Both the position numbers and the translations under genes were made by a program. DNA of 64,000 nt from Patescibacteria group bacterium (GTDB lineage: Bacteria > Patescibacteriota > Microgenomatia > Levybacterales > UBA12049): positions 519,343-583,342 of the forward strand of contig BPJB01000001.1 in the NCBI GenBank assembly GCA_026004395.1. The letters run 5' to 3'. Shown here one piece after another: positions 1 to 51,888 of this stretch (positions are counted from its first letter, which is position 1; every line of letters begins with the position of its first letter). The notes beneath the pieces are model-generated. The model had not been told where the DNA came from. It did no database searches and saw nothing but the letters and a program-made list of their open reading frames with translations.

Positions 1-179
1 TGGACATAACTACACCATCGGTTATCAGGGGAATAATTTTTAGTTCTCTCGCTTCCATAGCTTATTCTGTCTTGCATCAATAATTAATCTTACCAAGATT
101 CAATCATTTTACCTATATGGTTTAAAAAAGACAATTTTTGGTCAAAAGAAACTGAATCTAGCAGAAGGAGAAATATCTA

Positions 180-29232: not shown

Positions 29233-29304
29233 TGAGCCCAGAGGGATTCGAACCCCCAACCAATGCCTTAAGAGGGCACTGCTCTACCGTTGAGCTATGG
29301 GCCC
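29233..29304 (-). tRNA. tRNA-Lys (anticodon CTT)
   Basis: 72 nt. Manual cloverleaf fold: acceptor GGGCCCA/TGGGCTC, D-arm GCTCAACGGTAGAGC, anticodon stem-loop GTGCC-CTCTTAA-GGCAT, T-arm GGGGGTTCGAATCCCTC. CCA is not encoded. Confidence 0.8.
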
Positions 29305-29321
29305 AAAAAAATTATTTTTTG

Positions 29322-29394
29322 TACGCCCGAAGGGAATCGAACCCCCAACCTGATGGTCCGAAGCCATCCGCTCTATCCGTTGAGCTACGGGCGC
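29322..29394 (-). tRNA. tRNA-Arg (anticodon TCG)
   Basis: 73 nt. Acceptor GCGCCCG/CGGGCGT, anticodon stem-loop GATGG-CTTCGGA-CCATC, T-loop TTCGATT. CCA is not encoded. Confidence 0.8.
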
Positions 29395-37005: not shown

Positions 37006-37083
37006 TGGGGTGGCTGAGGGGACTCGAACCCCCGACATTCAGGTCCACAACCTGACGCTCTAACCAACTGAGCTACAGCCACC
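37006..37083 (-). tRNA. tRNA-His (anticodon GTG) with G-1 and encoded CCA
   Basis: 78 nt. Extra 5' G (G-1) opposite discriminator C. Anticodon stem-loop TCAGG-TTGTGGA-CCTGA. T-loop TTCGAGT. 3' CCA is encoded. Confidence 0.8.
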
Positions 37084-37161
37084 GTAAAATTGAGAATCAA
37101 CTGTCTAAAATCTTATCGAGCAATAAAATATAGTATAGCATATTAATTAGCTAAAACGAAG

Positions 37162-37374
37162 CTATTTGCGGAAAAAAAGATAAGCAATAATGCTCAGAAT
37201 TATACTTATAATAATTGATGTAACAATAGGAAAGTAAAAGGTAAAACCATCACGTTTTATATAAATATCTCCTGGCAACCTGGGAGGAAAGGGTAGTGAA
37301 GGGAAGAAAGTAAAGACCAATCCTATAATAAGTAGCATTCCTCCTATTATGATAAATAACTTACCTATTTCCAT
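37162..37374 (-). CDS. DUF2905-family small membrane protein
   Basis: 70 aa with two TM helices flanking the central LPGDIYIKRDGFTFYFP motif. Confidence 0.6.
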   Translation of the reverse strand: MEIGKLFIIIGGMLLIIGLVFTFFPSLPFPPRLPGDIYIKRDGFTFYFPIVTSIIISIILSIIAYLFFRK

Positions 37375-37378
37375 ATCC

Positions 37379-38038
37379 TTAAATCCTTTCTAATTGTGGA
37401 TCACGAGTTGGAGACAATTTAGCAAAAAAATATCCTGTTGCAAACCCGCCTATATGTGCAAAATAAGCTACTCCTCCTTGTTCTGGAGTCATTCCCAGTG
37501 TACCTACTCCTGAGAGTACTTGAAGAAAAATCCAGTATCCTAGCATTACAGCAGCACTAATATTTGCTGTAGTAATAAATGGAGGAATAAAAACCAATGT
37601 CTTGATTTGATGATGAGGAAAATAGGCAAAATATGCACCCAATGCTCCAGCAACTGCTCCGGAAGCACCAAGCATAGGGATATCTGATGCAGGATTCAAA
37701 AGATACTGTACTAAGCTACCTACAATACCAGATGTCAAATAAAGAAAAAGATAAACAAAAGGTGGCATATTACCCTCTACATTATCTCCAAATACCCACA
37801 GAAAAAGCATATTTGATCCGATATGCAACAAACCTCCATGAAGAAACATTGAAGTTATAAATGGATAAAGAGTGTTGATATCAGAAAAATCAATTTTTGC
37901 AGGAATAAGAGCATACATCAGTGTAAAAGTCTCAGGATTGATAATCTGAAGGTAGAAAACTGCAATGTTTATAGCAATTAAAAGTATATTAATAAAAGGG
38001 AAGCGTTTAGATTTCTCTGAGTCTGAAATTGGTAGCAT
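37379..38038 (-). CDS. Rhomboid-family intramembrane serine protease
   Basis: Six TM helices. Catalytic GASGAVAGALGAY (GxSG) and the HIGGF His motif. Confidence 0.85.
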   Translation of the reverse strand: MLPISDSEKSKRFPFINILLIAINIAVFYLQIINPETFTLMYALIPAKIDFSDINTLYPFITSMFLHGGLLHIGSNMLFLWVFGDNVEGNMPPFVYLFLYLTSGIVGSLVQYLLNPASDIPMLGASGAVAGALGAYFAYFPHHQIKTLVFIPPFITTANISAAVMLGYWIFLQVLSGVGTLGMTPEQGGVAYFAHIGGFATGYFFAKLSPTRDPQLERI

Positions 38039-38101
38039 ATTTTTTTATAGATGAGATATAGTTTACACGAAAAATGTAAGAAACACATCAAAAGCAATTT
38101 G

Positions 38102-38174
38102 TACGCCTGGAGGGATTCGAACCCCCGACCTGGTGCTTAGAACGCACTCGCTCTATCCACTGAGCTACAGGCGC
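38102..38174 (-). tRNA. tRNA-Arg (anticodon TCT)
   Basis: 73 nt. Acceptor GCGCCTG/CAGGCGT. Anticodon stem-loop AGTGC-GTTCTAA-GCACC. T-loop TTCGAAT. Confidence 0.8.
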
Positions 38175-38266
38175 ATGTAGAAGTTATTTTATCAAGATTT
38201 TCCTGCCTTAGCAAACTATTTAGCCTCATTGACAAATATTAAGCTAACATTTACTATGAAAAAGGT

Positions 38267-39265
38267 ATGGCTCATAAATTTTTTAGTTACTTACTCAAAA
38301 ACCAAGTGATTTTTGCTCTCTTTCTCATAGTAACAGGGTGGTTTCTCTTTCAGACAAGAGGCATCCTTACTTTGATCTTTCTTGCTTACATTATAAATGC
38401 GGCACTTCTTCCTCTAGTTAATAAGCTTCACAAAAGGGGAGTTCCTCATTTTTTATCAGTGCTTATTCCTTTTATAAGCATTTTATTAATTATCTTCTTG
38501 ATTGTCTTTCCACTTGTTCCTTTTGTAGCTTCTCAAGTAATGCTGCTCTTAACAAGATTACCTAATTATATTGACGACTCAACAAGAGCACTGGGTATTG
38601 TTATAGATGTAAATCAAGTACAAGACGTCGTAACAAAAGAGCTCAATACATTAGGAAAGAATGCTTTCTCTGTCACTAGTAAAGTCTTTGGAGGAATATT
38701 CTCAACACTTACAGTACTAGTAGTGAGTTTTTATCTAATTCTTTATCATGATCGCTTTAAGAGGAATATTGCGCATCTTTTCCATCCTAAAGATCGAGAA
38801 AAAGTACTGACAACCCTTAGTCTTATTGATGAAAAATTAGGAGCATGGGTACAAGGTCAATTAATTCTTTCATTATCTATTGGAGTAATTACCTGGATTG
38901 CGCTTAGTATTTTAGCTCTTCCCTATGCTGTACCACTTGCCATTTTAGCTGGTATGCTGGAGATTATTCCTACAATAGGACCTATTATTGCTTCCATACC
39001 AGCGATCATTGTTGCTTTTTCTATTTCACCCACGATGGCTATTGTTGTAGTTGTATTATATACTGTCATTCAAATGCTCGAAAATCACTTTTTGGTACCA
39101 AAAATTATGCAAAAAGCAGTCGGACTAAATCCAGTGGTAGTCATCGTCGCCGTTATGATTGGAGCAAATATGATGGGTGTTCTGGGAGCTCTTCTCGCAG
39201 TTCCATTTGTGTCCTTTATTATTGTCCTTTTCAATAGTATTAATGCCGCTGAAGAAAAACAATAA
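38267..39265 (+). CDS. AI-2E family transporter (PerM/UPF0118)
   Basis: 332 aa with about 8 TM helices. The overall pattern is typical of AI-2E transporters, including a conserved C-terminal PTIGPIIASIPAIIVAF segment. Confidence 0.7.
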   Translation: MAHKFFSYLLKNQVIFALFLIVTGWFLFQTRGILTLIFLAYIINAALLPLVNKLHKRGVPHFLSVLIPFISILLIIFLIVFPLVPFVASQVMLLLTRLPNYIDDSTRALGIVIDVNQVQDVVTKELNTLGKNAFSVTSKVFGGIFSTLTVLVVSFYLILYHDRFKRNIAHLFHPKDREKVLTTLSLIDEKLGAWVQGQLILSLSIGVITWIALSILALPYAVPLAILAGMLEIIPTIGPIIASIPAIIVAFSISPTMAIVVVVLYTVIQMLENHFLVPKIMQKAVGLNPVVVIVAVMIGANMMGVLGALLAVPFVSFIIVLFNSINAAEEKQ

Positions 39266-39853
39266 CTATTTCTCAGCAATTATAAGTGTCCAAGGAAGAG
39301 GATAACGTACTTTCTTAACCTTTAGTTTCTTACCGACAAAATGTTTAAATTGCCAAAATGTCCAATGATTAATATGTTCAATATCATTACCTAAACGCGT
39401 TAAATTTTTCCCTCGCAAAAAATTACCTAGCATAAATAATGGCTCATTGGGTACAGAAAGAACACAATATTTCTTCGTAACACGCACCAACTCCTCCAAA
39501 CCTTTTTCTGGATTATCAAGATGTTCTAACACTTCAGTGCATATAACAACATCAAAAGTCTCATCTTTATATTTTAGATCATAAATTGTTCCTTGCTTCA
39601 ATACCAAGCGAGGATGTTCTTTCTTACCTAGCTTAATAGCACGATCAAGATAATCTACACCCTCAAGTTTTTTCCCAATACCTGCCTTGCGCAAAATTTC
39701 TAATGTAAATCCTTCACCGCATCCAACATCAAGAATAGAGTAGGGCTGAAGAGCACGCACTTCTTCAAGTAGTGCTTTATTAAAATTCTCTAATAATTTT
39801 CTTTGAAGAAAACTATTACTTTTGTGTTTGAGGTAGTTGCTCGTAGCTTGCAT
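39266..39853 (-). CDS. Class I SAM-dependent methyltransferase
   Basis: Motif I ILDVGCGEGFTL and post-I acidic residue. Rossmann-fold methyltransferase pattern. Confidence 0.8.
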   Translation of the reverse strand: MQATSNYLKHKSNSFLQRKLLENFNKALLEEVRALQPYSILDVGCGEGFTLEILRKAGIGKKLEGVDYLDRAIKLGKKEHPRLVLKQGTIYDLKYKDETFDVVICTEVLEHLDNPEKGLEELVRVTKKYCVLSVPNEPLFMLGNFLRGKNLTRLGNDIEHINHWTFWQFKHFVGKKLKVKKVRYPLPWTLIIAEK

Positions 39854-40167
39854 GAACTATTATTATACATGATGCTATTACGGATAAAAACAGTATTTCT
39901 CAGTAGGTATTTTTTATATAAGCAAATTATTTCTTATATTTTGCAAAACTTCTTTCAGAGATTCATCTTTAAATAGTTGCAAACTTATTTTTGCTACTTG
40001 TATCTGCGCATCCATAATTTAGGGATATTCAAATGCAATTGAGTTACATTCAGATAAATCAAGATTTTTTTATTGATTCTCTTGATTTTTTTGTCGGATT
40101 CTTGAATGCTCCAGATTGAAGTATTTTGCCAAGTATACCTGTATACTTGGCAATATTGGGATATGTG

Positions 40168-40239
40168 AGCGGGGAACGGGATTCGCACCCGCGACCTCCT
40201 CCTTGGAAGGGAGGCATTCTACTGCTGAACTACCCCCGC
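40168..40239 (-). tRNA. tRNA-Gly (anticodon TCC)
   Basis: 72 nt. Acceptor GCGGGGG/TCCCCGC. Anticodon stem-loop CCTCC-CTTCCAA-GGAGG. T-loop TGCGAAT. Confidence 0.8.
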
Positions 40240-43840: not shown

Positions 43841-44174
43841 TGGTCGCAGTTACTGAACGCCGCTCGAACTTTCTTTGAACGACAATCTGCGCCCTGACGG
43901 GCGCAGAACCCGCCCAGCGGCTCGTCGCCTGACGGCGGCAGGCAAAGCCCGCAAAAATTTCCTTTTCTTTTAAGGGGGACGCGCAAAAAATTTTTTCAAT
44001 TAAGGAAACAATTTTTGCGGGCTTTGCCTCTTTGCTGGCGCAAAGACGAGCCGCTTCCCACCCCCAGTCCGCCTTCGGCGGACAGAGCAGGCGGGCAAAA
44101 ATTCCTTCCCCCAGACCCCCTTCCTTTTTGCCCGCCTGCTTGGGCTTCGCCCTAAAATTTTTTGGCGGGACTAT
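43841..44174 (+). repeat. IR1-L: 334 bp GC-rich hairpin-rich repeat, left copy
   Basis: Exact reverse complement of 49416-49749, checked segment by segment. Built from consecutive stem-loops, e.g. CTGCGCCC-TGAC-GGGCGCAG, TCCGCC-TTCG-GGCGGA, GGCAAAGCCCGCAAAAATT...AATTTTTGCGGGCTTTGCC and GCAGGCGGGCAAAAA...TTTTTGCCCGCCTGC. Confidence 0.85.
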
Positions 44175-44203
44175 AAATCAAAAAGGGCGGTGGGTGGGGT
44201 TAG

Positions 44204-45868
44204 TTACATTAAAACTGTTTTCATTAATTCTTTCAAATAATCAGGTTCTAACAAATCGTTTTCTGAATTAATATTATTCCAACCATCCTTCTCTCCTTTA
44301 TTGTGTTTATAATACATCTCCGGTGCACCGTGTCGCAACACAAAGAATCTTTTATCCTGTAAACTCCGTATCAAATCATCAAAACCATCAGGCACTCCTT
44401 TTTCATCTAATTTTTGAACTATATAATCTAGTTTCGGATCACCATCATTTTGCCAATCAATGTGTGCACGAAACCTCCTGAGCAACTCTTTTTCCAGTCC
44501 AAATTCTTCGAGCAGATACTCTATATCACGACTAAATAGATAATCCAAATCGCATATCACAGCAATATCATCAAAACACATCTGCTGATAAAATTTTCTC
44601 GCCAACCTTAATTGCTTTTTGCCATCGGCTTTAATGAAAAGAGTAAATTTTCCCTTTGGAGGATGAATATTAAAAATGATTTTTAATTTTTCATAAAAAT
44701 TCTCGTCATGACTGCCTTCAATTAAAACAACGCTGTCAGCAAATAACCCTTCAAGATTTCCACGACGCTCAAGGTGTCGTTTAACTAAACTTACATCAAC
44801 GCTGGATGGATTGAGAGCGATATTTTTGGTTCCTTCCTCTTTAGTTTTTCTTACTCTCCGATAGCCCTCAATAGTTGTTGGTGTAACAATGAAAGGTGAA
44901 TGTGTAGTTGTTACTATCTGATAACGCTCCATCATTTGGATTAAAGCATTTGCCATCTCACGTTGAGCATACGGATGAAGAAAAGATTCTAATTCTCCAA
45001 TTAAAAATATTGGCGCAGGACGATCTTGGTATCTTTTGCCTTTTTTAGCTAGCAACTTCAAAAAAGCTAATAATGTTGCTCTCTGCAAGCCATGCCCTTT
45101 TTGTTCTACTTCTGTTTTATGTCCATCATCAAGGAAAATCTTCATCTCTTTTGCAATAACAGTTTCGTCTGGTAAACCAAATTCAACAGATGGTGTAATA
45201 TCACTAAATTCACCCATAAATTCTTCTTTTAATCCAGCCTCGAACTCTGTGATTGCTTTGGAGCGTACTCCCTCTTCTTCGCTATGGAGGAAATTGTCTA
45301 AATCTGTTAAAACAGATTTTGTTTTAACAGCTAATTCTTGAAAAAATGAACTCATTACTTCTTTTTTTAATTTTCCCAATGCTGTTGTAGATTTATCAGT
45401 TAATTCTTGAACAGTATCAGCAGTAGCTGGAATTGATATAACATCTGGGAGAATTTTTAATAAATTTCCTGTAAAACCACTTGGATTGTGTAAAGTGCCA
45501 TCTTCTTTATAAATACCAATCTGAGCACCCGACTCCGGAGTTAGTATAGAGGCAATTTTCAAAATACCATTATCAATAGCGTTTTCTATTGCCTCTTTGT
45601 GATTACTAGCCTTTACTAAATGAGTAAAATCACTAATTCCTGCAAATTCGCCCTCTAAAACTATCGGTTTATCTTTGTCATGTTGCCATTTTGGAATATG
45701 CTCCTTCCTTATTCCAGTAGATAGCAATAATTCAGTTGCCTTCAGATAATGTGACTTCCCTGCGTTGTTTCTACCAACAAAAAAAGTAAATTCATTGAAA
45801 AAAACCTCATCTTCTTTGATTGGTCCTAAATTTTTAATTGTTAACTTTTTTAATAAAACCCTACTCAT
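44204..45868 (-). CDS. OLD-family ATP-dependent endonuclease (AAA ATPase plus Toprim), GajA-like
   Basis: N-terminal LTIKNLGPIK...FTFFVGRNNAGKSHYLKA (Walker A of the AAA_15/21 family). ABC-like signature and Walker B FLIGELESFLHP. C-terminal Toprim with VVLIEGSHDE and a DxD in VICDLDYL. Confidence 0.8.
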   Translation of the reverse strand: MSRVLLKKLTIKNLGPIKEDEVFFNEFTFFVGRNNAGKSHYLKATELLLSTGIRKEHIPKWQHDKDKPIVLEGEFAGISDFTHLVKASNHKEAIENAIDNGILKIASILTPESGAQIGIYKEDGTLHNPSGFTGNLLKILPDVISIPATADTVQELTDKSTTALGKLKKEVMSSFFQELAVKTKSVLTDLDNFLHSEEEGVRSKAITEFEAGLKEEFMGEFSDITPSVEFGLPDETVIAKEMKIFLDDGHKTEVEQKGHGLQRATLLAFLKLLAKKGKRYQDRPAPIFLIGELESFLHPYAQREMANALIQMMERYQIVTTTHSPFIVTPTTIEGYRRVRKTKEEGTKNIALNPSSVDVSLVKRHLERRGNLEGLFADSVVLIEGSHDENFYEKLKIIFNIHPPKGKFTLFIKADGKKQLRLARKFYQQMCFDDIAVICDLDYLFSRDIEYLLEEFGLEKELLRRFRAHIDWQNDGDPKLDYIVQKLDEKGVPDGFDDLIRSLQDKRFFVLRHGAPEMYYKHNKGEKDGWNNINSENDLLEPDYLKELMKTVLM

Positions 45869-45883
45869 AGAGTTCTTGTAATT

Positions 45884-46804
45884 TTATAAATCAAATCTTT
45901 TGTTTAATTTGTACATTTTGTTATCTAATAGTTTCAAATTCTTTTCTTTATTTTTCCAAATTTCTTTAAAATCCTTGTCTCTCATTGTGCGAATTTCACC
46001 AAGATAGACAGATACATAACAACCATTTACTTTTGTCTCTTTCGCTTGTTTTAGATTTTTTTCTGTAATTTTTATATACTGAGGGTCAATATCTATCCCA
46101 ATATACTTTCGTCCTAAACGTTTAGCGGCGACAGCGGTAGTTCCCGTACCAATGAATGGATCAAATACAATATCTCCCTCGTCGGTACTCATCAAAATAA
46201 GTCTCTCTAGTAATGGCACAGGTAATTGACAAGGATGTTCGTCTCTTCGTTTTTTATGACGGATTCTGTGAATGTCAGACCAAACATCGGAAAGAAGAGG
46301 GCCAAAGCCATGTGCTTGATCCTTTTTACCCCCATAATCTTTCAAAAACTCCTTACAGACACGACAGCGTGGATGTGGATATCTAATGTCATAAAACTTA
46401 AAATCCTTGTATGATTTTGATTTTGTGTAATATAAAATCCCATAGTGATTCGGTAAAAGCGTCTTGCCCATCGGTGCACCACCGGAATCCCAAGTAATCC
46501 AATGCCTAAAATAGGCGATTTTGTTTAGGTACTCGGCAAAGTGCGATAACCAACGGGGAATATTATGAACAAAAATAGATCCGCTTGGTTTTGTAATTCT
46601 CACCATCTCGTTCATCCATTTATTGCACCATTCTAAATACTCCTCTTTTTCTTTTGTGTCCTCATAGTGGTTATATTTTTTCTTCAAGTTAAAAGGCGGG
46701 TCAGCAAAAGTCATATCCACTGAATTGTCAGGGATATCTTTCATCACTTCCAAACAATCGCCTAGAATAATTTTGTTCTCAAATTTTTTAATATCTTTGC
46801 CCAT
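45884..46804 (-). CDS. DNA amino-methyltransferase (N6A/N4C, beta-class order IV then I)
   Basis: Motif IV TFADPPFN near the N-terminus. Motif I DIVFDPFIGTGTTAVAA near the C-terminus. Confidence 0.85.
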   Translation of the reverse strand: MGKDIKKFENKIILGDCLEVMKDIPDNSVDMTFADPPFNLKKKYNHYEDTKEKEEYLEWCNKWMNEMVRITKPSGSIFVHNIPRWLSHFAEYLNKIAYFRHWITWDSGGAPMGKTLLPNHYGILYYTKSKSYKDFKFYDIRYPHPRCRVCKEFLKDYGGKKDQAHGFGPLLSDVWSDIHRIRHKKRRDEHPCQLPVPLLERLILMSTDEGDIVFDPFIGTGTTAVAAKRLGRKYIGIDIDPQYIKITEKNLKQAKETKVNGCYVSVYLGEIRTMRDKDFKEIWKNKEKNLKLLDNKMYKLNKRFDL

Positions 46805-46806
46805 AA

Positions 46807-47826
46807 CTACTTGTTGAATACGGTTGATAACAATTCTTTAAAGCGATTAAGTTCCTCTTTGTGAAAAGTAAATACTTCATCATAAGCTCCAACCATTCTT
46901 TTAAGGTCGTTTTTTCTTACATACCAACCAATACCATCCACAAAACCAATAAATAGAGCTTTGGGATAATGCTTTTTGATGAGCTTAGCAACATTTATCT
47001 CTGTTTTTGCTTTGTCTCCTTGGCCAGAGGAAGTCGTTACAACATAAGAAGACTCGACAATCAATAATGGATTATTCTGATCGGGAATAATAAAATCCAT
47101 TGTTCGTTTTTCTTCATCCAGTACACCAACTAATTTTTGTAGATCTCCAGAAGTATATGGTATTTCAAGCTCCTCTAAAATTTTCTCAATAAGCACTTCT
47201 GGGTTATTTTCTTTTTTACCGGCATACGATCCTTTTTCTTTGTAGCGTATTAAAGTATCAACAAGAGATTCTATTTTAAATTCCAGCTTTTCAACACTTA
47301 GCTTTTTAAGTTCAAATAAAGGCAGGGCTTGAGTTAGTACAGGAACGGTAGAGCCCTCAAAAAATATATTTACAATTCCTTTCGCAAAGTTTTCATTATT
47401 CTTTATTAGATTAGCAATCTTTGAGTCGCTCCATTCACTAACTCCTCCCTCATCAATTTCTTCTGTTCCTGTTTGCCATTTATCTTTCAATGTAAGCCTG
47501 TTTAATTCCTCATCGTCAATCACTCTTATTAGAGTTATTAAGCGTTTTAAATATTCATTTGAGATGCCAGTCAATGCAAGTAGTGCTCGCAAGCCGTTTT
47601 TCTTATTGCGGATTAATTCAACAAAAAAGTCTTTCTTAAGTCCTTCTGTTGAGACTTTATTTCGCAATACTAAAAGTAATTCTTTGATTGAAGAAATATA
47701 GCCCTCGTATTTTTCCTCAAAATCACGGTCGTAAAGATAAAAGGTATTTTTATCTATAACCAGCTTAAATTTTGATTCAGTTGTGGGTTTTGAAATTTTA
47801 ATCATATTTTTATTTGTCATTTTCAA
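46807..47826 (-). CDS. Hypothetical protein, candidate restriction endonuclease of the RM operon
   Basis: 339 aa with no family match. The position between two MTase genes and a C-terminal MDFIIPDQNNPLLIVESSY stretch with possible PD..E nuclease residues suggest the R subunit. This is an inference from context only. Confidence 0.3.
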   Translation of the reverse strand: MKMTNKNMIKISKPTTESKFKLVIDKNTFYLYDRDFEEKYEGYISSIKELLLVLRNKVSTEGLKKDFFVELIRNKKNGLRALLALTGISNEYLKRLITLIRVIDDEELNRLTLKDKWQTGTEEIDEGGVSEWSDSKIANLIKNNENFAKGIVNIFFEGSTVPVLTQALPLFELKKLSVEKLEFKIESLVDTLIRYKEKGSYAGKKENNPEVLIEKILEELEIPYTSGDLQKLVGVLDEEKRTMDFIIPDQNNPLLIVESSYVVTTSSGQGDKAKTEINVAKLIKKHYPKALFIGFVDGIGWYVRKNDLKRMVGAYDEVFTFHKEELNRFKELLSTVFNK

Positions 47827-49039
47827 AAATTAAAATATATTCTTCCTTCATCGTATTTTGGAGACCTTTAATTGGTTTCAAAATTTCAAAAAGAAATTTA
47901 AACTTTTGCCCTTCTGCTAATTCTTTAATTTTCGTCTCCAATCTAACACCTTTTGTCTGAATATCGTTAGTTCCAACCACAAAAATAGTTTTGCTACCCT
48001 TTTTACTAACTCTTGCCAATTCTCTAAACACTTTATCAAGCATTTCAAAATAAAGTTCCAACTTTTGACTTATTCCTCTGCCTTGCAAACCAATCATCTT
48101 TTCTTTTAACTTGTCTGGGGCATAGCCAAGATATTCCAATTGTGGTTTATCATTATCTACATAATCTATTGCAAAAGAATAAGGCGGGGAGGTAATTACG
48201 CCGTCAACGCTATTATCTTCCAAGGGTAATTTTAACGCACTATCTTCAATAATTTTACTTTTCCCTATTTTTAAACCTAATTTTTCTCTTGCATTTTGGA
48301 AATTTTTGATAGTTGTTATATACCTGTTAAGTACAATTGGAAAAAGAGCACTTAACGATTTAGAGCTTCTGCGCGCGAAACCCACGGCATCAAGATAGGC
48401 TAATAAAGCAACTTCGTAGTATGACCTATCTTCATCGTCGCCATCTTTTATAAAATAGTGCGGTACTTTATCCTTGTTTAACTTTTTAAAAATTTTATTT
48501 TGTTCGTGGGTTATTTGAGTAAGTTTTTCGCTGTTAAGATTTAAGGCAAAAGTTTTTACTCTGCCCATCAAACAACAAAAGGGACTTACATCGACGCCCA
48601 CTGAATCAATGCCTAACAAATTTGCCTCTACTGATAAAGTCGCACTACCAGACATTGGATCAAGAACAACATTGCCCGGTTTTAGACCCATCATATTTAG
48701 TAAAGCCCTTATCATCTGTGGATGAAATTTGCCTCTATATGGGAATAAACTATGAGTGGCGTATCCTGTAGAATATTTACCATTTAAGAAAAAGGCTTTT
48801 GTGCGTAAGGAACTATTGCGATGTATATCTTCTAAATTTTGAAGATTGCAAGTCTGGTAGTGAATCGTTGGCTCGCCTTCTACTGATTTAAAGTATGCAC
48901 TGCGCCTAATTAAATCTTTTTTATTAAGATTTTCATATTCCCAAATAGCAAAATTTAACTCAAAAATTTCATCAGTCCCATCAATTAACTGATAGTCAGT
49001 AGGAAATAATTTTTTTGTTATTGGTTGAAAATTTTGCAT
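47810..49039 (-). CDS. DNA amino-methyltransferase (order I then IV, SPPY)
   Basis: Motif I VVLDPMSGSATL precedes motif IV VITSPPYSFAIDY. This is a second, differently organised MTase in the same operon. Confidence 0.7.
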   Translation of the reverse strand: MQNFQPITKKLFPTDYQLIDGTDEIFELNFAIWEYENLNKKDLIRRSAYFKSVEGEPTIHYQTCNLQNLEDIHRNSSLRTKAFFLNGKYSTGYATHSLFPYRGKFHPQMIRALLNMMGLKPGNVVLDPMSGSATLSVEANLLGIDSVGVDVSPFCCLMGRVKTFALNLNSEKLTQITHEQNKIFKKLNKDKVPHYFIKDGDDEDRSYYEVALLAYLDAVGFARRSSKSLSALFPIVLNRYITTIKNFQNAREKLGLKIGKSKIIEDSALKLPLEDNSVDGVITSPPYSFAIDYVDNDKPQLEYLGYAPDKLKEKMIGLQGRGISQKLELYFEMLDKVFRELARVSKKGSKTIFVVGTNDIQTKGVRLETKIKELAEGQKFKFLFEILKPIKGLQNTMKEEYILIFENDK

Positions 49040-49041
49040 AG

Positions 49042-49254
49042 TTATTTAATCAAATCATCAATCGGCACATCTAATGCTTTCGCAAGTTTAGTTATAGTTT
49101 CAAAAGTAGGATTTTTATTTACTCCATTCTCAATTTTTACAACGGTATTTAATGAAAGATCTGCAAGACGAGCCACTTTCTCAAGAGAATAGCCCTTTTT
49201 AGCCCTTAATTTTTTTAGATTATCCGATATTTTATTTGACATTTGCATATCCAT
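49042..49254 (-). CDS. XRE-family HTH protein, probable RM controller (C) protein
   Basis: 70 aa. LKKLRAKKGYSLEKVARLADLSLNTVVKIENGVNKNPTFETITKLAKALDV is a classic XRE HTH of C-protein size. It is the first gene of the minus-strand operon. A candidate promoter lies at 49330-49365 on the minus strand: -35 TTGATG, -10 TGGATAAT. Confidence 0.7.
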   Translation of the reverse strand: MDMQMSNKISDNLKKLRAKKGYSLEKVARLADLSLNTVVKIENGVNKNPTFETITKLAKALDVPIDDLIK

Positions 49255-49415
49255 TGTTTAACATTATAGTATATAGATTATATTCTAAACTTTCTTATTT
49301 TTCTATTATAATGATAACTAATTATCCAGAAAAAGTAAAGAAAAATCATCAAGGGAGTTTCCTTTTGTCGCCCGCGCATGGGTTGGGTGGGGCAAGGGCG
49401 ACTATAAAAAATACA

Positions 49416-49749
49416 ATAGTCCCGCCAAAAAATTTTAGGGCGAAGCCCAAGCAGGCGGGCAAAAAGGAAGGGGGTCTGGGGGAAGGAATTTTTGCCCGCC
49501 TGCTCTGTCCGCCGAAGGCGGACTGGGGGTGGGAAGCGGCTCGTCTTTGCGCCAGCAAAGAGGCAAAGCCCGCAAAAATTGTTTCCTTAATTGAAAAAAT
49601 TTTTTGCGCGTCCCCCTTAAAAGAAAAGGAAATTTTTGCGGGCTTTGCCTGCCGCCGTCAGGCGACGAGCCGCTGGGCGGGTTCTGCGCCCGTCAGGGCG
49701 CAGATTGTCGTTCAAAGAAAGTTCGAGCGGCGTTCAGTAACTGCGACCA
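49416..49749 (-). repeat. IR1-R: 334 bp inverted copy of IR1-L
   Basis: Perfect reverse complement of 43841-44174. It overlaps IR2-L by the hexamer CGACCA (49744-49749). Confidence 0.85.
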
Positions 49750-49902
49750 TACGATACTTTCAGAGTTTTTGGGCGAGTTTGATTGCTCGCTCGCCTCGCC
49801 AGAGGCGAGGCTCGCTTCGCAAATTTCCTTATATTTCGGCACTAAATCAAGGGGCGGACGGAAATCAAAGAGGATTTTTCTGTCCAGCAGGCGGCGGTTC
49901 GT
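49744..49902 (+). repeat. IR2-L: 159 bp GC-rich repeat upstream of the serine recombinase gene
   Basis: Exact reverse complement of 51446-51604. Contains hairpins GCGAG-TTTGATT-GCTCGC and GCCTCGCC-AGA-GGCGAGGC. Confidence 0.85.
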
Positions 49903-50074
49903 GGACGCAAAGCGCCCAGGGCAAAAGCCACCTTATAGAAAATCTATTGAATGCTTTTGCTCTCCAATTTTTTCCGCCTTTTGCCAAAGGTAAAAGAACA
50001 AAGCAAGTTTTTAATCTCGCGCTTTACACTGCGCCACAGGCGCAGTGGCCAAAGGCGACTAACCTAAAAGCAAT

Positions 50075-51664
50075 ATGAAGATCAAATACTTTTTATACGC
50101 TCGCAAATCAACAGAGGACGAAGAAAGACAAGTGATGTCTATTGAAGCCCAGCTTGCGGAGTTGGCGGAATATGCCAAGCGCGAAGGGCTGGAAATTATT
50201 GAGCAGTTTGTGGAAAGCAAAAGCGCAAAGAAGCCCGGGCGAGAAATTTTTAATAAGATGATTGAAAAAATCCATACCAGCAAAAGCCCGGTTGGCATTT
50301 TAGCGTGGCACCCTGATAGATTGGCAAGAAACAGCGTTGACGGCGGGCAGGTTATTTACCTCATAGACCAAGGCAAAATCGCTTCTTTGCGCTTTCCTAC
50401 TTTTTGGTTTGAGCCAACTCCGCAAGGACTTTTTATGCTTCAAGTCGCCTTTGGCCAAAGTAAGTATTACTCGGACAACTTGTCCGAGAATGTAAAGCGC
50501 GGGATTCGCCAAAAACTCAGGCGCGGGGAATATCCGGGCAAAGCTCCGCTTGGATATGTAAATAATCCCAAGACAAGGAACATTGAGCCAGACCCGACCA
50601 AAGCAAAAATTGTGGCAAAAGCCTTTGAGGAGTTTGCCCAAGGAAAGCACACTCTCAAAAGTTTAGGCGAGCGCCTGAGTTTTTGGGGCGTGGTGAGCAA
50701 AAACGGCACACCTCTTGCCAAAGCCACAATCCAACGAATGCTCACTAATCCAACTTATCTCGGCTTGATTGTCCACAAGGGCGAAACCTACGAGGGCAAG
50801 TTTCCTCCAATTATTTCCAGAGCGACTTTTTCAGCCGTTCAAAAAATGTTGAAGCAGAGAGCAAGGCCGCGCAAAACAAGAAAAGGACACAACTTCCCGT
50901 TTGTCGGGCTTTTCCGGTGCGGAGAGTGCGGCGGTATGATAACCGCGCAGTGGGCAAAAGGAAAATACCGCTACTACCGGTGCACAAAGAAGTTTGACAA
51001 ATGCAGCCAAGGATACTTGCGCGAGGACTTGCTCGTTGCCCAGCTTAAAGAAAAGCTGAAAAAAGTCGCTCTCTGCGAAGACTGGGCGGAAAAGATGTTG
51101 GTAAAGGTAGATGAATGGGAAAAGGAACAAGCCCAGTCTTCGCAGTCTTTCGCCCAAAATCTTGAGGAGAAAATCAAAGAAACCGAACAAAAGCTGGATA
51201 GATTAGTTAACGCCTTTTTGGACGGCACCATTGAAAAAGAGACCTATCTTGCCAAGAAAGACGAACTCATTAAAACTAAAACCGCCCTTCTGGAAAAGAA
51301 AGGCGATTTTGGGCGAAAGGGAAACAATTGGATCGAACCATTGAGAAATTGGATAAAAGACGCTCACCACGCCGAAAAACTTGCTTTGTCTCAACCCAGC
51401 CCATTAGATTTATATGAATGGGCTGGGTTTGCGGAAAAAATTGGAACGAACCGCCGCCTGCTGGACAGAAAAATCCTCTTTGATTTCCGTCCGCCCCTTG
51501 ATTTAGTGCCGAAATATAAGGAAATTTGCGAAGCGAGCCTCGCCTCTGGCGAGGCGAGCGAGCAATCAAACTCGCCCAAAAACTCTGAAAGTATCGTATG
51601 GTCGGGGACAGAGGACTCGAACCTCCGACCTCACGGTCCCAAACCGCGCGCTCTAGCCAACTGA
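50075..51664 (+). CDS. Large serine recombinase (serine integrase/transposase type)
   Basis: N-terminal resolvase catalytic domain with YARKSTEDEERQVMSIEAQ (catalytic Ser in RKST), a recombinase domain, a zinc ribbon CGECGG...YRCTKKFDKC, and a coiled-coil. GC content is about 50% against a roughly 33% background. The last ~50 codons lie inside IR2-R and the final ~20 codons run into tRNA-Pro, so the C-terminal extent is uncertain. Confidence 0.85.
   Translation: MKIKYFLYARKSTEDEERQVMSIEAQLAELAEYAKREGLEIIEQFVESKSAKKPGREIFNKMIEKIHTSKSPVGILAWHPDRLARNSVDGGQVIYLIDQGKIASLRFPTFWFEPTPQGLFMLQVAFGQSKYYSDNLSENVKRGIRQKLRRGEYPGKAPLGYVNNPKTRNIEPDPTKAKIVAKAFEEFAQGKHTLKSLGERLSFWGVVSKNGTPLAKATIQRMLTNPTYLGLIVHKGETYEGKFPPIISRATFSAVQKMLKQRARPRKTRKGHNFPFVGLFRCGECGGMITAQWAKGKYRYYRCTKKFDKCSQGYLREDLLVAQLKEKLKKVALCEDWAEKMLVKVDEWEKEQAQSSQSFAQNLEEKIKETEQKLDRLVNAFLDGTIEKETYLAKKDELIKTKTALLEKKGDFGRKGNNWIEPLRNWIKDAHHAEKLALSQPSPLDLYEWAGFAEKIGTNRRLLDRKILFDFRPPLDLVPKYKEICEASLASGEASEQSNSPKNSESIVWSGTEDSNLRPHGPKPRALAN
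51446..51604 (-). repeat. IR2-R: inverted copy of IR2-L, inside the recombinase 3' end and abutting tRNA-Pro
   Basis: Perfect reverse complement of 49744-49902. Its last 6 bp (TGGTCG on the plus strand) are the 3' terminal CGACCA of tRNA-Pro. Confidence 0.85.
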
Positions 51665-51675
51665 GCTAGTCCCCG
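51599..51675 (-). tRNA. tRNA-Pro (anticodon TGG), CCA encoded
   Basis: 77 nt. Acceptor CGGGGAC/GTCCCCG. Anticodon stem-loop CGCGG-TTTGGGA-CCGTG. T-loop TTCGAGT. 3' ACCA. The 3' end coincides with the element boundary. Confidence 0.8.
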
Positions 51676-51803
51676 TATCGCATTTGCAATTCATTTTGCA
51701 GTAGCTTTTGAAAATCCATCTCTATATTCTTACCTATTATCATTACAAACTTTTGATTGCATTCATTACCTCAATTTGATTTATCTTAATTAACTTTGAT
51801 GAG

Positions 51804-51888
51804 TGCCGCGAGAGAGACTCGAACTCTCACGTCCTTTTAGGGACAAAGGCTCTTAAGGCCCTCGTGTCTACCATTCCACCACCGCGGC
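51804..51888 (-). tRNA. tRNA-Leu (anticodon TAA) with long variable arm
   Basis: 85 nt. Acceptor GCCGCGG. Anticodon stem-loop AGGGC-CTTAAGA-GCCTT. Long variable arm TGTCCCTAAAAGGACGT. T-arm GAGAGTTCGAGTCTCTC. Confidence 0.75.

What the first reader, a model, noticed from the sequence alone, without database searches (positions are those of the whole stretch)
44204..49365. C-protein-controlled RM operon with two MTases plus an OLD-family ATPase-Toprim nuclease as single-strand cargo
All five genes are on the minus strand. In order they are the XRE C-protein, an MTase (motif I then SPPY), a 339 aa unknown protein that is the likely REase, an MTase (DPPF then motif I), and an OLD/GajA-like nuclease. 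Two MTases of different motif order with one REase is typical of Type IIS or asymmetric-site systems.

Fusing an OLD-family nuclease to the end of an RM operon would be a compound defence cassette. The cassette is AT-rich like the host, while its flanking repeats and the recombinase are GC-rich. That points to capture of local defence genes by a foreign mobile backbone.
Basis: partly seen in the sequence, partly recalled or inferred. Interest (0 to 1): 0.55.

Follow-up and report, generated by a model that had tools for sequence, protein, structure and literature searches.

The report
Restriction–OLD defence operon on tRNA-targeting element
The five genes are a real restriction-modification operon with an extra OLD nuclease, but they are travelling cargo of a 7.8-kb serine-recombinase element inserted at a tRNA-Pro gene, not local genes, and that element family has an odd, apparently undescribed double inverted-repeat layout.

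Summary
Observation confirmed. Five tightly packed minus-strand genes (44204-49254) encode an XRE controller, an alpha-class amino-MTase, a 332-aa DpnII-family REase, a beta-class MTase and a 554-aa OLD ATPase-Toprim nuclease.

Interpretation partly right. The RM+OLD "compound cassette" holds and recurs: 6 of 7 contexts of this OLD clade lie just downstream of unrelated RM systems. The slot after M2 is interchangeable in sister cassettes (OLD, CBASS cyclase, PifA, Ppl-like, NERD-like; GmrSD embedded elsewhere).

"Capture of local genes" is refuted. The cassette stays at 33% GC in a 54%-GC host, is 93% identical in another Patescibacteria genome, and its M-R-M core occurs in 350 species.

The cassette is the cargo bay of a 7.76-kb large-serine-recombinase element (43841-51604) at the 3' end of tRNA-Pro(UGG). 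Cargo and integrase are each bracketed by perfect inverted repeats (334 and 159 nt) that meet at an inverted, intact attP-like site. This layout is conserved in most of 80 analysed relatives (at least 565 found). I found no description of it, and its purpose is unexplained.

The RM/OLD part is a new member of a known kind. The element architecture is the more novel part.

The parts
43841..43846 (.). Left junction S1 (attL-type): host flank | core TGGTCG | arm A'. The inferred crossover dinucleotide is CG at 43845-43846.
   Evidence: The core is shared by all three junctions. The host flank half-site is not conserved among relatives.
43841..44174 (.). Arm A', the distal inverted repeat of the cargo bay (334 nt, 56% GC). 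It is a nested palindrome with several GC hairpins.
   Evidence: 100% reverse-complement identity with 49416-49749. It contains internal 20-nt inverted repeats. RNA fold z-score is -8.2. No Rfam family matches.
44175..44203 (-). Tail motif after the OLD stop codon (sense strand TAACTAACCCCACCCACCGCCC).
   Evidence: Related motifs follow the last cargo gene in L002, L101, L103 and, more weakly, L005 and L105. Its function is unknown.
44204..45868 (-). OLD-family ABC-ATPase/Toprim nuclease (554 aa), Class-1-like with no helicase or RT partner. It is the interchangeable fifth gene.
   Evidence: PADLOC Old 1.6e-66; Pfam AAA_15 and OLD-like_TOPRIM. The closest PDB entry is TsOLD 6P74. Invariant residues: G32..K38-S39, K257-G-x-G-L-Q-R, E292, E294, H323, E384, D440, D442. 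G291 replaces the Walker B acid.
45884..46804 (-). M2, a beta-class N6A/N4C DNA methyltransferase (DPPF ... motif I).
   Evidence: Pfam N6_N4_Mtase 9e-53. PDB relatives are M.MboIIA 2e-30, CcrM, RsrI and DpnA.
46807..47805 (-). REase (332 aa), DpnII-family C-terminal PD-(D/E)XK-type core. Invariant residues in ORF numbering: D244, E258, S260, K272/K274, E276.
   Evidence: Pfam DpnII 30.1 bits against a cutoff of 23. Homologues are named 'DpnII family type II restriction endonuclease'. The model has pLDDT 69.8. Foldseek top hits are BstEII (E=1e-4) and BbvCI.
47810..49039 (-). M1, an alpha-type amino-methyltransferase (motif I, about 150 aa, then TSPPY).
   Evidence: PADLOC MTase_II 2e-26; Pfam N6_N4_Mtase in two stretches. 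Motifs are invariant down to 43% identity, including archaeal copies. M1-R-M2 synteny is conserved in most of the 80 loci examined from 350 matching species.
49042..49254 (-). XRE/C-type HTH controller (70 aa; the start could be 49254, 49248 or 49242).
   Evidence: HTH_3 3e-16; PADLOC Control_protein 1e-7. PDB hits are C.BclI 5e-6 and C.AhdI 9e-4. HTH homologues of 35-59% identity head the cargo in many relatives of the element.
49255..49345 (-). Operator/promoter region. It holds the dyad TTATCATTATAATAG...CTATATACTATAATGTTAA, which overlaps two promoter-like sites (TTTACT-17-TATCAT and TAGAAA-17-TATAAT). The second site ends 10 nt before the ATG, so the transcript is leaderless or nearly so.
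   Evidence: The region is conserved in 8 of 9 aligned loci, including cassettes only 65% identical in protein. The promoter scan finds both sites, but the scan is not above chance for the region as a whole.
49359..49415 (-). Head motif: hairpin GTCGCCC-N22(CCCCACCC)-GGGCGAC followed by GGAACTCCCTTGAT.
   Evidence: Conserved in elements with different cargo: window, L002, L005, L101, L103, L142 and L157. Its function is unknown.
49416..49749 (.). Arm A, the proximal inverted repeat of the cargo bay. Its core-proximal 45 nt is an attP-type half-site.
   Evidence: The GAAC-like motif occurs three times at 11-nt spacing. CGAAC lies at +19..23, against +14..18 in the tRNA half-site.
49744..49749 (.). 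Internal site S2: A | CGACCA | B. This is an intact attP-like site, inverted relative to S1 and S3.
   Evidence: Its two halves equal the element-side halves of S1 and S3. The same arrangement is seen in L002 and in 11 further relatives.
49744..49902 (.). Arm B, an inverted copy of the integrase 3' end and P arm.
   Evidence: 100% reverse complement of 51446-51604. A B-type inverted repeat is present in 60 of the 80 relatives; 64 of them have at least 150 nt of sequence upstream of the integrase.
50075..51664 (+). Large serine recombinase (529-aa ORF). The conserved part ends near aa 462 (GTNRRL). The tail is encoded by arm B' and runs into the tRNA gene.
   Evidence: Resolvase, Recombinase and Zn_ribbon_recom domains. 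NCBIfam hits are XisF and CcrB at 1e-28. It is 50% identical to the L002 integrase and S12 is invariant. It is under 30% identical to any phage integrase.
51446..51604 (.). Arm B' with right junction S3 (attR-type): B' | TGGTCG | tRNA.
   Evidence: Arm B' supplies the tRNA's terminal ACCA.
51599..51675 (-). tRNA-Pro(UGG), the integration target. The gene is left intact.
   Evidence: ARAGORN and Rfam at 62 bits. A tRNA abuts the integrase 3' end in 49 relatives; 67 of the 80 have at least 60 nt of sequence downstream of the integrase.

Best explanation
Window 43841-51604 is a 7.76-kb integrative element inserted at the 3' end of tRNA-Pro(UGG) by its own large serine recombinase.

Its cargo bay is bracketed by perfect 334-nt inverted repeats and carries one operon, transcribed away from the integrase. 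The operon order is as follows:
1. An XRE controller with its own dyad operator. Inferred role: it delays and limits expression after entry into a new cell, as C-proteins do.
2. A Type II RM system: two amino-methyltransferases of permuted motif order flanking a DpnII-family PD-(D/E)XK endonuclease.
3. A Class-1-like OLD ATPase-Toprim nuclease.

The C-M1-R-M2 block is a widely travelled unit. The fifth position is a swap slot for a second-line defence gene. The OLD here belongs to a clade that is habitually appended to RM operons of unrelated types.

The most likely working model has two parts:
- Shown by homology: the MTases protect host DNA and the REase cuts unmodified invaders.
- Inferred by analogy with PrrC/EcoprrI, PARIS and Gabija: the OLD acts as a backup or abortive nuclease when restriction is evaded or inhibited.

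The recognition site and the OLD trigger are unknown.
For: - Gene identities.
- Operon: gaps of 15 nt or less. The operator/promoter region is conserved.
- Mobility: the cassette is 93% nt-identical in CP055308.1 and other metagenomes, and 82% identical in a 54%-GC host while staying at 33% GC. The REase family is found in 350 species genomes across phyla and in Archaea.
- Swap slot: cassettes over 90% identical carry OLD, a 743-aa NERD-like protein or a CBASS cyclase after M2. More distant cassettes carry PifA or Ppl-like genes. GmrSD/HEC-06 is embedded between R and M2 in 8 of 80 loci.
- RM-OLD linkage: OLD relatives of 57-94% identity lie directly downstream of five other RM contexts:
  - an NmeDI-type M/R fusion plus an MTase;
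  - an MTase plus a 348-aa ORF;
  - an MTase plus DUF6996/6997;
  - Type I hsdMSR;
  - near a D12 plus N6_N4 MTase pair.
  A distant OLD (25% identity) also follows a TdeIII RM in a sister element.
- Element ends: the three-junction comparison shares one core, and the half-site motifs follow LSR attP/attB rules. The tRNA remains intact. The same layout is seen in most of the 80 relatives analysed; at least 565 were found.
Against: - There is no experimental or methylome evidence, and the recognition site cannot be inferred. The k-mer depletion test on 56 kb of host DNA was uninformative.
- The REase assignment rests on a partial Pfam match (C-terminal 115 aa) and a mediocre model (pLDDT 70, TM about 0.3).
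- M1's best PDB hits are tRNA m2G methyltransferases, although only over the 48-aa motif I region.
- The OLD lacks the canonical Walker B acid, so its ATPase chemistry may differ.
- One OLD context (P0132) shows no recognisable RM. Only 7 contexts were sampled.
- Functional coupling of OLD to RM is pure inference. Co-location in a cargo bay could be enough to explain the pairing.
- Because the 334-nt arms are identical, the orientation of the cargo in this short-read-derived assembly cannot be verified.
Confidence: 0.72

Rival explanations
1. One reading: a GC-rich foreign backbone (recombinase plus repeats) captured AT-rich defence genes that were native to this AT-rich host.
For: The cassette GC (33.7%) equals the host GC (33.7%), while the arms and the integrase are at 46-56% GC.
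Against: - The same cassette stays at 33% GC in a 53-55% GC genome and at 31-33% elsewhere.
- It is 93% nt-identical in a different Patescibacteria genome that carries a different integrase.
- The M-R-M core occurs in 350 species.
- Head and tail motifs and the HTH are shared with elements that carry other cargo.
Confidence: 0.04
2. RM and OLD are independent neighbours. The cargo bay is simply a sink for defence genes, and OLD works alone as a Class 1 OLD with no functional link to restriction.
For: - The fifth slot holds many unrelated defence genes.
- The cargo of sister elements is heterogeneous.
- Class 1 OLDs from P2 and Vibrio cholerae defend on their own (PMC10568477, PMC12392090).
- One clade member has no RM next to it.
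Against: - Six of 7 sampled contexts of this clade are RM-adjacent, co-oriented and often overlapping by 4 nt, across at least 5 unrelated RM types.
- A second, distant OLD is paired with a TdeIII RM.
- The review states that Class 1 OLDs are typically not near other defence genes, so this clade is atypical.
Confidence: 0.3
3. The OLD nuclease serves the element rather than defence, for example by nicking or processing DNA for transfer, replication or maintenance (an addiction-like role).
For: - Toprim nucleases nick DNA.
- The element has no other replication or transfer gene.
- OLD clade members are often near large serine recombinases.
Against: - OLD is dispensable for the element: sister elements with a closely related integrase (89-91% identity) carry other genes in that slot, and most relatives have no OLD.
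- Clade members also occur next to RM systems without any recombinase.
Confidence: 0.04
4. The inverted-repeat architecture, and hence the element model, is an assembly artefact of a metagenome-assembled genome.
For: - The arms are 100% identical and longer than typical reads.
- The Logan contig breaks exactly 30 nt into both arms.
- Contigs L156 and L158 differ only in cargo orientation, which an assembler could produce arbitrarily.
Against: - The same layout is present in a closed genome (CP055308.1).
- It is also present in 60 of 80 independent metagenome contigs with different sequences and different tRNAs.
- It also occurs where the arms have diverged to 88-96%, so their placement there is unambiguous (L005).
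Confidence: 0.03

Closest known systems
DpnII / MboI-type Type II RM systems (two MTases plus a DpnII-family endonuclease)
   Same: - The REase matches Pfam DpnII above the curated cutoff.
- One alpha-type and one beta-type amino-MTase flank or precede a single REase. The M-R-M order matches that of MboI (from my own knowledge).
- M2 is in the same structural family as DpnA.
   Different: - The Pfam match covers only the C-terminal 115 aa.
- M1 is not a D12/Dam-class enzyme like DpnM. It is a permuted N6_N4/UPF0020-type MTase with TSPPY.
- GATC specificity is not indicated.
- A controller gene and an appended OLD are present.
C-protein-controlled RM systems (PvuII, AhdI, Esp1396I, BclI)
   Same: - A small XRE HTH is the first gene of the operon.
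- A dyad operator overlaps the -10 elements, and the start is leaderless or nearly so.
- There is sequence similarity to C.BclI and C.AhdI.
   Different: - The operator lacks the GACT...AGTC C-box consensus.
- Homologous HTH genes head non-RM cargo in sister elements, so it may be an element-level regulator.
Class 1 OLD nucleases (P2 Old, Thermus scotoductus OLD 6P74, Vibrio cholerae OLD, YbjD)
   Same: - It is a single polypeptide with an ABC ATPase carrying a dimerisation insert and a C-terminal Toprim.
- It has no helicase or retron partner.
- Its length of 554 aa fits the class.
- Its best PDB hit is TsOLD.
   Different: - It is not an isolated gene. It is the last gene of an RM operon, and this is recurrent in the clade.
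- The Walker B acid (E276 in TsOLD, D313 in VcOLD) is replaced by an invariant Gly.
RM-embedded or RM-triggered ABC-ATPase nucleases: PrrC in EcoprrI, PARIS (AriA/AriB), and embedded defences (Payne et al. 2024, bioRxiv 10.1101/2024.01.29.577857)
   Same: - An ABC ATPase linked to a nuclease is co-oriented with, and physically tied to, an RM system.
- Alternative accessory modules (GmrSD/HEC-06, Ppl-like, PifA) occupy the same RM family.
   Different: - The OLD is appended to a Type II RM rather than embedded in Type I, BREX or Hma.
- The effector is a fused Toprim, not an anticodon nuclease or a separate AriB.
- No trigger is known.
Large-serine-recombinase islands that target the 3' end of a conserved gene (SCCmec/CcrAB, XisF elements, PLE Int, LSR-type tycheposons)
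   Same: - It has the Resolvase, Recombinase and Zn-ribbon domains.
- Insertion is site-specific at a conserved RNA or protein gene end and leaves the target gene intact.
- It carries cargo and shows tandem accretion (L139, L104).
   Different: - It retains an intact, inverted attP between cargo and integrase.
- Long perfect inverted repeats bracket both segments.
- It recognises the universal tRNA T-loop CGAAC motif and uses many different tRNAs.
Genomes with two inverted-repeat-bracketed invertible segments (yeast 2-micron plasmid, herpes simplex L/S segments, phage P1 C segment, shufflons)
   Same: - It has the layout A'-unique-A.B-unique-B', with the recombinase gene in or beside a segment.
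- The crossover sites lie at the outer ends of the repeats.
- Alternative orientations are seen among relatives.
   Different: - It is integrated at a tRNA by a large serine recombinase.
- There is no evidence yet that the recombinase performs the inversions, and no phenotype is tied to orientation.

Membership tests
Type II restriction-modification system | DNA amino-methyltransferase catalytic motifs (motif I FxGxG-like and motif IV (D/N/S)PP(Y/F)). | tested here: met
   - M1 has DPMSGSGT and TSPPY, invariant in 10 homologues of 43-86% identity.
- M2 has DPPF plus motif I, with N6_N4_Mtase at 9e-53.
Type II restriction-modification system | A separate endonuclease with a nuclease fold, genetically linked to the MTase. 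| tested here: met
   - Pfam DpnII at 30.1 bits against a cutoff of 23.
- Foldseek top hits are BstEII (E=1e-4, prob 1.0) and BbvCI.
- D244/E258/K272 are invariant.
- M1-R-M2 synteny holds in most of the 80 loci examined.
- The model quality is only moderate.
Type II restriction-modification system | Sequence-specific methylation and cleavage. | not testable with these tools
   This needs methylome data or enzymology. The k-mer depletion test was uninformative.
DpnII/MboI family (GATC) | Full-length DpnII-type endonuclease plus a Dam-like D12-class MTase. | tested here: not met
   - Only profile positions 169-270 of 278 match.
- M1 gives no D12 hit. M2 gives only a weak local D12 hit, while N6_N4 dominates.
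Type IIS / asymmetric-site RM | Asymmetric recognition site with one MTase per strand. | not testable with these tools
   Two MTases of different class are compatible with this, but they also occur in DpnII-type palindromic systems. One of the top fold hits, BbvCI, does recognise an asymmetric site.
C-protein-controlled RM | A small HTH as the first gene, plus dyad operators (C-boxes) overlapping its promoter. | tested here: inconclusive
   - The HTH and a conserved dyad overlapping two promoter-like sites are present.
- The sequence differs from the classical C-box.
- Binding was not tested.
- HTH homologues also head non-RM cargo.
OLD family nuclease | N-terminal ABC ATPase (Walker A, signature, catalytic Glu, H-loop) fused to a C-terminal Toprim (Glu plus DxD). 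| tested here: met
   GRNNAGKS, KGHGLQR, E292, H323, E384 and D440-L-D442 are invariant in 14 sequences of 54-94% identity. PADLOC Old scores 1.6e-66.
OLD family nuclease | An acidic Walker B residue (E276 in TsOLD; D313 in VcOLD). | tested here: not met
   This position aligns to G291, which is invariant in the clade. E294 might compensate, but this is untested.
Class 1 OLD | A single isolated gene with no helicase or RT partner, not next to other defence genes. | tested here: not met
   There is no helicase or RT partner. However, the gene is the last gene of an RM operon, and 6 of 7 clade contexts are RM-adjacent. Compare the statement in PMC10568477.
Gabija (GajA/GajB) | A UvrD-like helicase GajB immediately downstream. 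| tested here: not met
   The gene downstream of OLD is replaced by arm A' and host DNA. GajA models score far below the Old model.
Large serine recombinase integrative element | Resolvase catalytic domain with the nucleophilic Ser, plus Recombinase and zinc-ribbon domains. | tested here: met
   All three Pfam domains are present. S12 in YARKSTE is invariant.
Large serine recombinase integrative element | attL and attR junctions that share a short core with attP, with half-sites that carry the ZD motif 5 bp further out in attP than in attB. | tested here: met
   - The core TGGTCG is present at all three sites. In L115 only CG is shared.
- CGAAC lies at +14..18 in the tRNA half and at +19..23 in A'.
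- The interpretation uses the Rutherford/Van Duyne model recalled from memory.
Large serine recombinase integrative element | Excision to a circle and an empty attB in related genomes. | not tested
   No circular contig was found among the loci. No empty site for this host could be fetched.
Site-specific inversion system (Hin/Gin/Cin, shufflon, 2-micron type) | Segments bracketed by inverted recombination sites and found in both orientations. | tested here: inconclusive
   - Brackets are present.
- L156 and L158 are 99.95-100% identical but have the cargo flipped.
- L119, L113, L170 and L171 have the integrase flipped relative to the tRNA or the cargo.
- Assembly ambiguity and RecA-mediated flipping are not excluded.

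The most novel reading that the evidence does not exclude
The window's element represents an undescribed, abundant family of tRNA-targeting large-serine-recombinase elements with a herpesvirus/2-micron-like 'two invertible segments' design. Each unit keeps a second, inverted attP.

The design may serve either of two purposes:
- It lets the integrase segment flip next to the tRNA promoter, so that read-through is either antisense (integrase off) or sense (integrase on).
- It lets cargo bays be exchanged between elements, as a natural recombinase-mediated cassette exchange.

Cargo exchange would explain how one RM core is found with many accessory defence genes and with different integrases across phyla, including the minimal-genome Patescibacteria.
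Probability: 0.25. Interest if true: 0.8.

Novelty: new variant of a known kind. Interest (0 to 1): 0.58.

Why it matters
- **OLD biology.** The finding adds a recurrent genomic context, with OLD appended to RM operons of at least five unrelated types. This contradicts the textbook description of Class 1 OLDs as isolated genes. It also gives a concrete, testable guess about the trigger: failure or inhibition of restriction.
- **RM biology.** One M-R-M core acts as a chassis for interchangeable second-line defences (OLD, CBASS cyclase, PifA, Ppl-like, GmrSD).
- **Mobile-element biology.** The finding exposes a large family of small LSR elements that read the universal tRNA T-loop. They carry defence cargo across phyla, including Patescibacteria, and share an unexplained internal inverted attP.
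- **Possible applications.** If that site controls inversion or cassette exchange, it would be a new regulatory principle for serine integrases. It would also be a source of compact, programmable tRNA-targeting integrases.

Tried and rejected
- **Exact-protein look-up of the integrase.** It is not on record.
- **PDB sequence searches for the REase.** The single-sequence search gave only a marginal Ecl18kI hit (E=0.056). The profile search gave nothing meaningful.
- **Recognition-site inference.** k-mer under-representation in 56 kb of host DNA gave no outlier. GATC was only mildly low.
- **Known RNA family in the GC-rich arms.** There were no hits at gathering thresholds and only chance miRNA-like hairpins at E<1.
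- **Model of two separate elements with palindromic attP sites integrated in tandem.** Rejected, because the central dinucleotide of S2 is inverted where it is asymmetric (L002 AC/GT/AC; L152 GA/TC/GA).
- **Folded single-strand 'splint' model.** Considered and dropped: serine recombinases need duplex sites, and the product would break the chromosome.
- **Circular forms.** No contig has terminal overlaps.
- **OLD clade in viral contigs and plasmids.** Viral contigs gave 3 distant hits and plasmids gave none. The REase gave none in plasmids.
- **Other LSRs near OLD relatives.** None shows the inverted-repeat layout, so the layout is specific to this LSR family.
- **L005 against L008 as an 'integrase-less' derivative.** The left flanks differ altogether. 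The contigs may be chimeric across the shared cassette, so I did not use them as evidence.
- **Literature.** Five searches found no description of the architecture. This is absence in the held library only.

Full report
**1. What is at the coordinates**

Five ORFs lie head to tail on the minus strand, with gaps of 2, 4, 2 and 15 nt.

- The 70-aa protein is an XRE helix-turn-helix. HTH_3 scores 3e-16 and PADLOC 'Control_protein' scores 1e-7. Its PDB relatives include C.BclI and C.AhdI.
- The 409-aa protein (M1) carries motif I (DPMSGSGT) about 150 residues before TSPPY. PADLOC Type II MTase models score up to 2e-26. Both motifs are invariant in homologues down to 43% identity, including archaeal ones. 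Its best PDB hits are tRNA m2G methyltransferases, but only over the 48-residue motif I region.
- The 306-aa protein (M2) is a canonical beta-class N6A/N4C DNA MTase. N6_N4_Mtase scores 9e-53, and its relatives include M.MboIIA, CcrM, RsrI and DpnA.
- The '339 aa unknown' matches Pfam DpnII above the curated threshold (30.1 against 23 bits) over its C-terminal 115 residues. Homologues show that it starts at the ATG at 47805 and is 332 aa long. D244, E258, S260, K272/K274 and E276 are invariant. An AlphaFold model of moderate quality (pLDDT 69.8) has an alpha/beta core there. Its only significant PDB fold hit is the restriction enzyme BstEII (E=1e-4), and BbvCI comes next.
- The 554-aa protein is an OLD-family nuclease. 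PADLOC Old scores 1.6e-66, OLD-like Toprim is present, and the closest structure is Thermus scotoductus OLD 6P74.

**2. Catalytic residues of the OLD**

I aligned 14 relatives of 54-94% identity. The following are invariant:
- Walker A (GRNNAGKS);
- the signature-like KGHGLQR;
- E292 and E294;
- the H-loop His323;
- the Toprim Glu384;
- D440-x-D442.

The residue aligned with the Walker B acid of TsOLD (E276; PMC7049728) is an invariant glycine (G291). The protein is under purifying selection and is not decayed. Its ATPase site departs from characterised OLDs at a position that is essential in the Vibrio enzyme (D313; PMC12392090).

**3. The cassette is not local**

- The REase has near-identical relatives (85-100% aa) in contigs attributed to Patescibacteria, Bacteroidales, Ignavibacteria and Anaerohalosphaeraceae. 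At about 65% identity it reaches Asgard, Altiarchaeales and Thermoplasmata archaea. In all, 350 GTDB species genomes encode a relative.
- The order M1-R-M2 is conserved in most of the 80 loci examined.
- At the DNA level the whole C-to-OLD block is 93% identical in the closed Woesebacteria genome CP055308.1. C-to-M2 is 82% identical in an Anaerohalosphaeraceae genome. There the cassette is 33.4% GC between flanks of 53-55% GC.
- The AT-richness therefore belongs to the cassette.
- The window's own proteins are 100% identical to KatS3mg089_0549 and _0551 of a Patescibacteria MAG. A Logan contig from run DRR290133 equals window 44145-49445 and stops 30 nt inside each repeat.

**4. The fifth gene is a swap slot, and this OLD clade follows RM systems**

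Among cassettes over 90% identical in C-M1-R-M2, the gene after M2 varies:
- OLD in the window and in CP055308.1;
- a 743-aa protein with a weak NERD match;
- a CBASS-type oligonucleotide cyclase, partial or decayed.

Homology breaks about 64 nt before the M2 stop. More distant cassettes carry PifA-like or Ppl-like ATPases there. In 8 of 80 loci a GmrSD-type enzyme (PADLOC HEC-06, E down to 1e-192) is embedded between R and M2.

Looking from the OLD side, I examined seven genomic contexts of this clade. Six place it directly downstream of, and co-oriented with, RM genes of unrelated kinds:
- this M-R-M system;
- an NmeDI-type fusion plus an MTase, overlapping by 4 nt;
- an MTase plus a 348-aa ORF, overlapping;
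- an MTase plus DUF6996/6997;
- a Type I hsdM-S-R locus;
- a D12 plus N6_N4 MTase pair nearby.

One context shows no recognisable RM. A sister element (L101) carries C, a TdeIII-family REase, an MTase and a different OLD of only 25% identity.

A recent review describes Class 1 OLDs as single genes not proximal to other defence genes (PMC10568477). This clade is an exception to that description.

The general phenomenon is known: ABC-ATPase nucleases embedded in or tied to RM-like systems as second-line defences. Examples are PrrC/EcoprrI, PARIS and the 'guilt by embedding' survey (bioRxiv 10.1101/2024.01.29.577857). That OLD backs up restriction is therefore a reasonable inference. It is not a result.

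**5. Controller**

The 170 nt upstream of the HTH gene are strongly conserved, even in cassettes whose RM proteins are only 65% identical. The region contains three features:
- a hairpin, GTCGCCC-N22-GGGCGAC;
- a dyad, TTATCATTATAATAG...CTATATACTATAATGTTAA;
- two promoter-like sites that overlap the dyad arms. The proximal one ends 10 nt before the ATG.

This fits C-protein logic, although the sequence is not the classical GACT/AGTC C-box.

HTH homologues of 35-59% identity, each with its own co-varying dyad, head the cargo operon in many relatives of the element. Some of that cargo is not RM, for example a GTP-cyclohydrolase/methyltransferase fusion. I therefore read the HTH as the element family's cargo-bay regulator. 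It does the job of a C-protein here.

**6. The element**

tRNA-Pro(UGG) lies at 51599-51675 on the minus strand. The 529-aa ORF at 50075-51664 has Resolvase, Recombinase and zinc-ribbon domains and runs into the tRNA gene.

Two exact inverted-repeat pairs exist:
- A'/A: 43841-44174 and 49416-49749, 334 nt;
- B/B': 49744-49902 and 51446-51604, 159 nt.

Their outer ends are the same hexamer. It reads TGGTCG at 43841, CGACCA at 49744 and TGGTCG at 51599, and the last of these is the tRNA's 3' end. The three junctions read as follows:
- host | core | A';
- B' | core | A', inverted;
- B' | core | tRNA.

This is attL, an intact attP and attR. The same arrangement, with different arm sequences and a different tRNA (Ala), is present in CP055308.1, whose integrase is only 50% identical. 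In both elements B' starts at the conserved GxNRRL motif, about 50 codons before the stop.

**7. The family**

A scan of metagenome contigs found at least 565 relatives of the integrase. I analysed the best 80, of 57-79% identity.

- B-type repeats flank the integrase in 60 of them. Sixty-four have at least 150 nt of sequence upstream of the integrase.
- A tRNA gene abuts the integrase 3' end in 49. Sixty-seven have at least 60 nt of sequence downstream of the integrase. The targets include Pro ggg/tgg/cgg, Glu, Arg, Ala, Ile, Trp, Tyr, Lys and Ser.
- An A-type repeat pair brackets a 1.2-8 kb cargo next to B in 17. Twenty-six have more than 1.5 kb of sequence upstream of arm B.

Aligning the half-sites outward from the crossover gives three patterns:
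- a shared GRAY at +9..12 in the tRNA, A' and B' halves;
- CGAAC at +14..18 in the tRNA half, which is the universal T-loop;
- the same motif at +19..23 in A', followed by a third GAAC-like motif 11 nt further out.

A 5-bp outward shift of the distal motif in attP relative to attB is what the structural model of serine integrases predicts (recalled from Rutherford and Van Duyne; not re-read here). In L115 the only bases shared by all three sites are CG, which locates the crossover.

Cargo in 19 bays includes the following:
- Type II and Type III RM systems;
- HinP1I and TdeIII enzymes;
- OLD;
- Schlafen/AlbA_2 proteins;
- UvrD and SNF2 helicases;
- some non-defence genes.

Tandem units occur in L139, L104 and L171, so the tRNA-side junction can serve again as a target. 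The integrase is under 30% identical to any phage integrase in the phage collection. Other serine recombinases next to OLD relatives lack the repeats.

**8. Orientation variants and the open question**

- Contigs L156 and L158 are 99.95-100% identical, but their 2.1-kb cargo bay is inverted.
- L157 and L166 also have flipped cargo.
- L119 has a tRNA fragment on the 5' side of the integrase.
- L113, L170 and L171 have cargo downstream of the integrase.

Both segments therefore occur in both orientations in nature. Assembly ambiguity across identical arms and RecA-mediated flipping are not excluded.

In the window the arms are identical, so the cargo orientation cannot be checked here. It matches L005, whose diverged arms (88-96%) make the placement unambiguous.

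I cannot explain why an inverted attP is retained. Four ideas are recorded in the notebook (entry 4):
- an orientation switch of the integrase relative to tRNA read-through. No sigma-70-like site was found upstream of the integrase, which is weak support;
- an integrase operator between the divergent promoters;
- natural cassette exchange;
- a two-attP circle that can insert in either internal orientation.

Five literature searches found no description of this layout.

**9. Verdict**

The RM operon with an appended OLD is real, and it is a new member of a known kind (an RM system with an attached second-line nuclease). The recurrent RM-OLD linkage and the Walker B glycine are modestly surprising.

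The 'local capture' idea is wrong. The whole block is the cargo of a promiscuous tRNA-targeting serine-recombinase element.

The element family's double inverted-repeat, three-site architecture is the most novel thing in the region and deserves follow-up.

Noticed in passing
window 49744-49749 with arms 49416-49902; also L002 8048-8393: An intact, inverted attP-like site (A|core|B) sits between the cargo bay and the integrase. As a result, cargo and integrase are each bracketed by long perfect inverted repeats whose outer ends are the crossover core. The layout is conserved across the integrase family, and its purpose is unknown.
   Followed up: partly
L156 1-2105 against L158 1-2102: These two metagenome contigs are 99.95-100% identical, but the 2.1-kb cargo bay is inverted relative to the integrase and tRNA side. 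This is either real inversion or arbitrary assembly across a 148-nt repeat.
   Followed up: partly
L119 8565-8760: A complete tRNA-Pro(CGG) is followed after 22 nt by a duplicated tRNA 3' half. That half abuts arm B on the 5' side of the integrase, which is the opposite integrase orientation to most relatives.
   Followed up: partly
L139 95-4547; L104 214-5408; L171 1-4883: These loci show tandem arrays of units: two integrases, or cargo on both sides of one integrase. The tRNA-side junction can therefore be reused as a target (accretion).
   Followed up: partly
L005 556-1599, L009 4074-5117, L010 436-1479: The integrase of the sister element (89-91% identical to the window's) has an in-frame stop where the window has Trp348 (KVDE*EKEQ). 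In the same elements the arm pairs have diverged (A 88-96%, B about 76-79%). This looks like a decaying copy.
   Followed up: partly
L026 2349-4004, L031 9996-11684, L057, L072, L073, L075, L080, L094: In 8 of the 80 M-R-M loci a roughly 550-aa GmrSD-type Type IV enzyme (PADLOC HEC-06, E down to 1e-192) is inserted between the REase and M2. This is a clean case of a defence gene embedded in a Type II RM system.
   Followed up: yes
window 49359-49415 (head) and 44175-44203 (tail): A hairpin, GTCGCCC-N22-GGGCGAC, with a CCCCACCC loop lies upstream of the controller. A TAACTAACCCCACCC motif follows the last gene. Together they give direct C-rich repeats just inside the arms, and they are shared by elements with different cargo.
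   Followed up: partly
window 43841-44174 and 49416-49749: Arm A is itself a nested palindrome (20-nt arms with a 50-nt loop, plus several GC hairpins). It folds far better than shuffled sequence (z=-8.2) but matches no Rfam family.
   Followed up: partly
window 44998 region (OLD residue G291): The Walker B acidic residue of characterised OLDs is an invariant glycine in this RM-linked clade (FLIGELE against IIEEPE in TsOLD).
   Followed up: partly
L033 1-60 and 6354-6413: A contig of a cassette with only 65% protein identity (C-M1-R-M2 plus a Ppl-like ATPase) begins and ends in a 60-nt inverted repeat of the same GC-rich type. The repeat-bracketed bay therefore extends to distant relatives. 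Many cassette contigs are 5-6.5 kb long, as expected if assemblies break at the arms.
   Followed up: partly
L005 against L008 and L006: The same cassette is joined to different left or right flanks in contigs from related samples. These are probably chimeric assemblies across the shared 5.8-kb repeat, so flank combinations from such contigs should not be trusted.
   Followed up: partly
window 29232-29394, 37006-40239, 51599-51888: The 64-kb window holds seven tRNA genes. None of the other six is occupied by a similar element, and no other copy of arms A or B exists in the window.
   Followed up: yes
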